From assembly GCA_964016885.1 (NCBI GenBank), contig OZ024743.1:21948001-22012000 (forward strand): a DNA stretch of 64,000 nucleotides, read 5' to 3'. The number at the start of each line of letters is the position of its first letter. Position 1 is the first letter of the stretch. The DNA comes from Eledone cirrhosa. Its lineage: Eukaryota. The notes beneath the pieces are model-generated. The model searched no databases, was not told the DNA's origin, and saw only the letters and a list, made by a program, of their open reading frames with translations. The position numbers were made by a program, and so were the translations under genes. Shown here one piece after another: positions 7,681 to 8,250 of the stretch.

Positions 7681-8250
7681 TATAAACAAGGTTTAGCAAA
7701 TAATGAAAAAGTTTCAAAATAAATTTTAAAAAATTGACTTTACCTACTATAGTTACCTTTACCGATCGGTTTCGAATCCCAAAAATAAAACGGAGACCAT
7801 ACGGCCTTCGTTGCAAAGAAAGATTCTCGTCAGAAGGTTCTTTTCATTCAAAGAATATAAAATTCCTGAATTTAAATCACAAACTAGCGCTATCAAAACT
7901 GTTCCTGGGATGAGAGTGGATGATATAGAAACAGGTTTATCAAGGGCCGAAGCAAAGATAGAGGCAAAAGGAGGTAGGTCAAACTAGCCACAGCTATTGC
8001 TAGCAGCAGTCAGAACGACCAAATTTGTTCTCAACGTTAGTGGAGGTAGTAGTAATAGGATATACTATAGTAGGTAAAGTCAATTTTTAAAAATTTATTT
8101 TGAAACTTTTTCATTATTTGCTAAACCTTGTTTATATTTGTTCTGGCTCGTTAATTTATTAACCCGCCATTGAATCACACTGGCATTTGGTTGGACAATA
8201 CATGCGTACCTTGGCGCCTTGTGCGTGAAGGAACGTATATCCTATTACTA
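7681..8250 (-). mobile_element. Non-coding hammerhead element in (TA)n with two inverted duplications
   Basis: Inverted repeats 7681-7753/8064-8136 and 8050-8065/8235-8250; hammerhead inside; TA tracts on both sides. Confidence 0.75.
7755..7838 (-). ncRNA. Type I hammerhead ribozyme motif
   Basis: Minus strand ACCTT-CTGACGA-GAATC...GATTC-GAAAC-CGATCG-GTA-AAGGT; all three stems pair; stem III palindrome ACCGATCGGT; GUA site. Confidence 0.85.

What the first reader, a model, noticed from the sequence alone, without database searches (positions are those of the whole stretch)
7681..8250. Two inverted arms reconstruct a closed ~483 nt circular hammerhead monomer
Seen: the minus-strand unit runs 8065->7681. 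The plus arm 8064-8250 begins with the last ~73 nt of that unit, continues with 98 new nt, and ends with the first 16 nt of the unit (GTATATCCTATTACTA). End is therefore joined to start through the 98 nt, giving a 385+98 = 483 nt circle with one hammerhead. Inference: the template was a circular RNA or a head-to-tail tandem, copied twice in opposite orientations from different start points.
Basis: partly seen in the sequence, partly recalled or inferred. Interest (0 to 1): 0.75.

Follow-up and report, generated by a model that had tools for sequence, protein, structure and literature searches.

The report
Two-armed Penelope-type hammerhead retrozyme insertion
This is one copy of an abundant 483-base non-coding repeat that carries a predicted self-cutting RNA motif and sits in the genome as tandem arrays and mirror-image pairs starting at two fixed points, which suggests it is pasted in by the enzyme of Penelope-type jumping genes, possibly from a circular RNA that was not shown here.

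Summary
The left arm is unit 1-385 (minus strand, 8065->7681) and the right arm is unit 313-483 plus 1-16 (8064->8250). The 483-nt unit is real: it forms head-to-tail arrays of up to about 10 copies elsewhere, and its hammerhead 25-mer occurs 1,142 times in the genome. The arms are not random permutations of a circle. Outer (3') ends fall at two fixed sites about 110 nt apart, nearly always against (TA)n. Inverted insertions pair one of each (15 of 16 and 33 of 33 classifiable pairs). Inner (5') ends lie anywhere and show no pile-up at the cleavage site. Both arms and all units of an insertion carry one haplotype. This is the known footprint of Penelope-like elements (inverted 5'-truncated copy, tail at one end), and a coding Penelope-like insertion in this genome shows it too. 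Verdict: a new family of animal non-LTR retrozyme, likely mobilised by Penelope-like enzymes. A circular template fits but is not separated from an uncut tandem transcript. No RNA data and no coding partner were found. The scan noted the same architecture before in other families of this genome.

The parts
7681..8065 (-). Left arm: unit positions 1-385, 5'-truncated at 8065, 3' end at fixed site E1
7755..7838 (-). Type I hammerhead motif: stem I 7838-7834 with 7759-7755; CUGACGA 7833-7827; stem II 7826-7820 with 7780-7774 enclosing a long loop with a hairpin; GAAA 7773-7770; palindromic stem III CCGAUCGG 7769-7762; predicted cleavage after 7760
   Evidence: stems kept with different letters in a sister family; cleavage not tested
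8064..8065 (.). Head-to-head junction of the two arms with a 2-nt overlap
   Evidence: in 55 pairs the junction ranges from a 6-nt overlap to a 49-nt gap
8064..8250 (+). Right arm: unit 313-483 plus 1-16, 5'-truncated at 8064, 3' end in fixed zone E2
8137..8250 (+). 'Tail' between E1 and E2 (98 + 16 = 114 nt), present on one arm only
   Evidence: compare the PLE tail in PMC8557442 and PMC11167929
7577..7680 (.). (CA)n(TA)n microsatellite, left flank; likely target
8249..8265 (.). (TA)8 run, right flank; likely target

Best explanation
The window holds one two-armed insertion of a 483-nt non-coding, hammerhead-bearing repeat (a non-LTR retrozyme) that was likely copied from RNA into a (TA)n tract by a Penelope-like reverse transcriptase/GIY-YIG endonuclease supplied in trans. 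Shown: the unit, its arrays, two fixed 3' ends (E1 at unit 385/386; E2 at unit about 487-499), (TA)n flanks, free 5' ends, E1+E2 pairing, and one haplotype per insertion. Inferred: the endonuclease cuts both strands in (TA)n. One DNA end primes at E1 and the other at E2 on the same RNA sequence, probably helped by the few U/A bases at these sites. Each cDNA runs 5'-ward for a variable distance and past the cleavage site, and the two products are joined head to head. The template is most likely a self-cleaved and re-ligated monomer circle (about 55%) and otherwise an uncut tandem transcript (about 35%).
For: Fixed ends: in 47 position-ordered loci, 64 of 71 arms end at E1 (38) or E2 (26) against (TA)n. 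Pairing: 15 of 16 classifiable inverted pairs are E1+E2 (P=2.6e-4 at p=0.5). In 79 loci anchored on E1, all 34 classifiable pairs have an E2 partner (33 after removing one duplicate; P=1e-10). 5' ends of 172 arms cover the whole unit; 5 of 69 E1 arms and 3 of 21 E2 arms stop in the 30-nt bin holding the cleavage site, like neighbouring bins. The two arms differ at 20 of 1,039 polymorphic sites in 46 pairs, against 36% (minimum 23%) in 1,000 shuffles; 6 locus-private variants sit in both arms. Common alleles are carried by all copies of an insertion in 529 of 544 cases; divergence is 0.37% within and 5.5% between insertions. The 10-unit and 9-unit arrays have 1 and 2 variable sites. A coding Penelope-like insertion, L158 (GIY-YIG; 96% identical to the RT+GIY-YIG family of L149), is a 3.3-kb palindrome in (TA)n with a hammerhead in each arm and a 61-nt tail on one arm only. 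A sister family of 481-488 nt keeps the geometry (ends +89 and about +196 after cleavage; 5 of 5 inverted loci are short+long) and has compensatory stem II changes. Literature: inverted 5'-truncated copy, tail at one end, microsatellite bias (PMC8557442); two internal start sites and cutting of both strands in vitro (PMC11167929).
Against: No coding partner was found: no similarity to the unit in 50 GIY-YIG loci, best z 2.1 among their 3' repeats, and no PLE reading frame joined to an arm in 115 + 11 loci, only separate neighbours. The tail is about 110 nt, against 30-40 nt in the papers. Ends show TA microhomology, whereas PMC11167929 reports initiation without homology. One pair is E1+E1 (L041), and in L225 the arms differ at several subfamily sites. 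Six private variants are shared by some but not all units, which needs later local duplication or a mixed linear template. In PMC11167929 uncut RNA was the main substrate in vitro and no reads ended at the cleavage site. The circular fold is not unusually stable (z -1.4, 60 shuffles). Assembly polishing could make arrays look more uniform than they are.
Confidence: 0.85

Rival explanations
1. Same Penelope-like machinery, but the template is an uncut linear tandem transcript of a uniform master array, with no circle involved.
For: No stop at the cleavage site fits this equally well. Long uniform arrays exist as possible masters. PMC11167929: uncut RNA is the dominant substrate in vitro. Only 1 of 9 Xenopus dimers self-cleaved (bioRxiv 10.64898/2026.07.22.740005). 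Six 'some units' variants.
Against: New alleles become fixed in all units of arrays in many haplotypes (529 of 544), which needs a one-unit bottleneck and then re-expansion. No two of 172 arms showed the same 5' junction with shared unique upstream sequence (read by eye). Circles were shown for mussel and axolotl retrozymes (PMC7229834).
Confidence: 0.35
2. The unit is the terminal repeat (pLTR) of a coding Penelope-like element, and these are its 5'-truncated copies.
For: Same end signature as coding elements (L158). Most PLE insertions are 5'-truncated.
Against: Units follow each other directly with no reading frame between them. The longest ATG-started frame is 13 aa on the hammerhead strand and 25 aa on the other. 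No arm continues upstream into a PLE frame.
Confidence: 0.07
3. Satellite DNA spread by DNA-level events (rolling-circle DNA, unequal exchange, fold-back repair), with the hammerhead as a passenger.
For: Tandem arrays and a few shared within-array variants; no A>G editing bias.
Against: Strand-specific fixed 3' ends, free 5' ends, (TA)n targeting and E1+E2 pairing are not expected from DNA-level spread.
Confidence: 0.04
4. L1-type twin priming on a linear self-cleaved monomer.
For: In this one copy the right arm starts 6 nt after the cleavage site and ends 16 nt past the start of the left arm.
Against: Across the family, 5' ends are not enriched at unit 297-322 (6 of 71 and 9 of 129 arms) and are not tied to the partner's outer end. 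The left arm crosses the cleavage site intact. The twin-priming model is recalled, not read here.
Confidence: 0.03

Closest known systems
Metazoan non-LTR retrozymes (Cervera and de la Pena 2020, PMC7229834: passages and part 3 of 6 read; Li, Clavereau and Pollet 2026, bioRxiv 10.64898/2026.07.22.740005: parts 1-3 of 5 read)
   Same: Non-coding tandem repeat of low GC (38%), one type I hammerhead per unit, short stem III with tetraloop, monomers to multimers dispersed, PLEs in the same genome.
   Different: Unit of 483 nt (170-400 nt in PMC7229834; 51-972 nt in the preprint). Long loop 2 with an inner hairpin. The parts read do not describe two fixed ends, inverted two-arm insertions or (TA)n targeting for retrozymes. 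Circles were shown there and not here.
Endonuclease-bearing Penelope-like elements (Craig et al. 2021, PMC8557442: passages; Frangieh et al. 2024, PMC11167929: parts 1-2 of 4; Cervera and de la Pena 2014, PMC4209133: passages)
   Same: 5' truncation, partial tandems, inverted 5'-truncated copy, tail at one end, AT-rich or (TA)n targets, hammerhead with palindromic stem III upstream of two internal start sites. A circular template for more-than-unit copying is proposed in PMC4209133.
   Different: No reading frame; tail about 110 nt instead of 30-40; TA microhomology at the ends; no sequence link to any coding PLE sampled here.

Membership tests
non-LTR retrozyme | Head-to-tail tandem repeats of a few hundred bases | tested here: met
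   483-nt period, up to about 10 units
non-LTR retrozyme | One type I hammerhead per unit | tested here: met
   Core and three stems; 1,032 copies with both core halves exact; stem changes compensated in a sister family; no Rfam hit
non-LTR retrozyme | No protein coding | tested here: met
   Longest ATG frame 13 aa sense, 25 aa antisense
non-LTR retrozyme | Self-cleavage of the RNA | not testable with these tools
   Needs in-vitro transcription
non-LTR retrozyme | Expression as circular RNA | not testable with these tools
   No RNA holder listed
Penelope-like element (autonomous) | RT + GIY-YIG reading frame | tested here: not met
   so not an autonomous PLE
Penelope-like insertion signature | Fixed 3' ends, 5' truncation, inverted 5'-truncated copy | tested here: met
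Penelope-like insertion signature | Tail at one end (30-40 nt in the papers) | tested here: inconclusive
   Tail present at one end in 48 of 49 pairs, but about 110 nt long; 61 nt in the coding family of L158
Penelope-like insertion signature | (TA)n or AT-rich target | tested here: met
Non-autonomous derivative of a named PLE | Sequence homology to the terminal repeat of a coding PLE | tested here: inconclusive
   None in 50 GIY-YIG loci taken from 150 scored of 10,597 candidates

The most novel reading that the evidence does not exclude
Each two-armed insertion records one concerted event: a dimeric Penelope-like enzyme primes both ends of a (TA)n break at two different sites about 110 nt apart on a single 483-nt ribozyme-closed RNA circle and rolls around it. 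The family would then be a genomic record of circle-templated, two-ended Penelope retrotransposition, with the RNA start sites mapped to the base.
Probability: 0.4. Interest if true: 0.65.

Novelty: new member of a known kind. Interest (0 to 1): 0.4.

Why it matters
Animal retrozymes are proposed to borrow Penelope-like enzymes and to use RNA circles, on grounds of co-occurrence and similarity of terminal repeats. This family shows the Penelope insertion footprint directly in about 130 insertions and names two start sites and a target. That makes a short RNA substrate available for an in-vitro test of the circle-versus-linear question. It is not a new class, and the scan has seen the same layout in several other families of this genome.

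Tried and rejected
Rfam at gathering and E-value thresholds: no hammerhead family hit. Unconstrained fold of the hammerhead region: not better than shuffles (z 0.26); the active fold lies 2.1 kcal/mol above the free minimum. RNA runs: no RNA holder listed, which is no evidence either way. Contigs of 2 of the 4 listed runs, of unrecorded library type, were laid; they cover the unit and join its end to its start but cannot show RNA ends or circles. A-to-I editing scars, a lead from note e1-8803865 on another family: not seen here (A>G 23 against T>C 38 of 251 private substitutions, P=0.61). Enrichment of 5' ends at the cleavage site: none. Rod-like circular fold: not significant. Coding partner: none found. 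Window reading frames are LINE-type RT and AP endonuclease, unrelated to this element. A genome-wide count of tandem pairs was not obtained. Rows dropped: L063, L065, L222 (duplicates), L209, L210, L236 (cut by region edges), and arms under 90% identity or 60 nt. Low-frequency alleles (2-5 loci) were 51 'all copies' against 68 'partial'; the partial ones are about what repeat mutation would give by a rough estimate, so this test does not separate circle from linear template. Paper searches listed no cephalopod retrozyme paper; supplements were not seen and may list such families. Sequence look-up in earlier findings: nothing.

Full report
Observation. The arms overlap by 2 nt at 8064-8065 and both outer ends run into (TA)n. 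A search of the window's genome (3.0 Gb, 1,796 contigs) gave 190 matches among 40 scored of 1,911 candidates, including arrays with a 483-nt step. Locus L011 carries the 98 nt (96 of 98 identical) between two copies of the 385 nt. The closed unit is therefore a natural tandem unit. The host looks like an octopus by earlier notes and my recall; I did not test this.

Hammerhead. The minus strand reads stem I, CUGACGA, stem II, GAAA, CCGAUCGG, UA, stem I, with cleavage predicted after 7760, which is unit position 306. Common variants in stem II keep or improve pairing (unit 246 U>C in 18 loci, 287 G>A in 9). A sister family with periods of 481-488 nt has the same stem III, different stems I and II, and a two-sided change within its stem II (GCUUUG/CAAAGC against GCCUUG/CAAGGC). 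The short palindromic stem III is the kind that PMC4209133 expects to work as a dimer (passages). Rfam does not detect it and cleavage is untested. Exact copies: 1,142 of a 25-mer and 1,032 with both core halves; reversed controls 0.

End census. Set 1 is the 47 loci behind the first 100 position-ordered hits on contig C1. Of 71 arms, 38 end at unit 376-390 (E1), 26 at unit 476-20 (E2) and 7 elsewhere. Of 19 inverted pairs, 15 are E1+E2, 1 is E1+E1 and 3 have one unclassified end. Set 2 is 79 new loci from the first 100 of 326 exact E1 junctions: 34 pairs are E1+E2 (two of them duplicates of one another), none E1+E1, 3 E1+other, 1 other+other, 42 single. Chance of this pairing at p=0.5 is 2.6e-4 and 1e-10. 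E1 is nearly one site; E2 is a zone of about 12 nt with ends at TA steps. The same E1 word continues into the 98 nt in 220 places. Refined 5' ends of 172 arms cover the whole unit, without excess at the cleavage site. So the window's 'unit start' is an ordinary truncation point, and its 98+16 nt are the tail between E1 and E2.

One template per insertion. In 46 pairs the two arms disagree at 20 of 1,039 polymorphic sites, against 36% in shuffles. In 81 of 128 insertions with overlapping copies, common alleles are in all copies in 529 of 544 cases. The 10-unit and 9-unit arrays hold 1 and 2 variable sites while differing from the family majority at 38 and 25. Against a pure one-unit template: 6 private variants are shared by only some units, L225 has mixed arms, and uniform master arrays would give the same picture. 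No A>G bias was found.

Machinery. The genome is rich in GIY-YIG matches (150 scored of 10,597 candidates). Long frames carry RT (just under the Pfam cut-off) and GIY-YIG. One such insertion, L158, is a 99.7% palindrome of 3,266 nt in (TA)n with a minimal hammerhead in each arm and 61 extra nt on one arm. PMC8557442 describes partial tandems, an inverted 5'-truncated copy, a 30-40 nt tail often at one end and microsatellite bias for PLEs (passages). PMC11167929 shows cutting of both strands, two internal start sites that bound the tail, and a predicted dimer (parts 1-2 of 4). No coding element sharing sequence with the unit was found, so the partner is inferred.

Mechanism. Shown: structure, ends, pairing, haplotypes. 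Inferred: transcription, self-cleavage, trans-mobilisation, and priming of the two cut DNA ends at E1 and E2. A linear cleaved monomer is excluded as main template because copies cross the cleavage site freely. A circle is favoured over an uncut tandem because new alleles get fixed across whole arrays, because circles are shown for other animal retrozymes (PMC7229834, part 3 of 6) and because PMC4209133 proposes this route. It is weakened by the in-vitro preference for uncut RNA and by weak cleavage in 8 of 9 Xenopus dimers. No RNA data were available.

Novelty. The class is known, and a 2026 preprint argues that animal retrozymes are non-autonomous PLE derivatives (parts 1-3 of 5). This 483-nt family had no look-alike in earlier notes, but eight listed notes describe the same layout in other families of this genome; these are unchecked AI notes and not independent support. 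What this analysis adds is the counted E1+E2 rule, a tail of about 110 nt kept in a sister family, and the lack of a stop at the cleavage site. Verdict: new member of a known kind, interest 0.4.

Noticed in passing
L245-L247, L249-L254 (e.g. G000:C1:19333081, 30629266, 115575743): Sister retrozyme family, period 481-488 nt, same stem III but otherwise unlike; ends +89 and about +196 after the cleavage site; 5 of 5 inverted loci pair a short with a long end.
   Followed up: partly
L158 (G000:C1:97884000-97893500), locus 3260-6525: Coding Penelope-like insertion as a 3.3-kb palindrome with a minimal hammerhead in each arm and a 61-nt tail on one arm.
   Followed up: partly
window 10516-10980, 39901-40192, 38061-38321 with 39386-39643: Three more inverted repeats, each with a hammerhead-like CUGA-GA...GAAA motif in both arms; probably further Penelope-type insertions.
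   Followed up: no
window about 13799 and 34138, minus strand: Single hammerhead-like motifs of other sequence families.
   Followed up: no
window 19879-29234 and 59921-63860, minus strand: GC-rich LINE-type copies with RT, AP endonuclease and zf-RVT matches, apparently in tandem.
   Followed up: no
window 6028-6237 and 9119-9689: Several copies of a short interspersed repeat of about 200 nt.
   Followed up: no
set 2 arms, unit about 340-367 and 106-136: Possible stopping hot spots: 8 of 31 E2 arms stop at 130-160 nt and 9 of 49 E1 arms at 250-280 nt; not tested for significance.
   Followed up: no
L062/L063 (C17:7.69-7.71 Mb), L064/L065, L221/L222: Whole insertions duplicated with their flanks, i.e. 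later DNA-level duplication.
   Followed up: no
L066, L067, L166, L173: Older, diverged relatives of the unit with partial matches.
   Followed up: no
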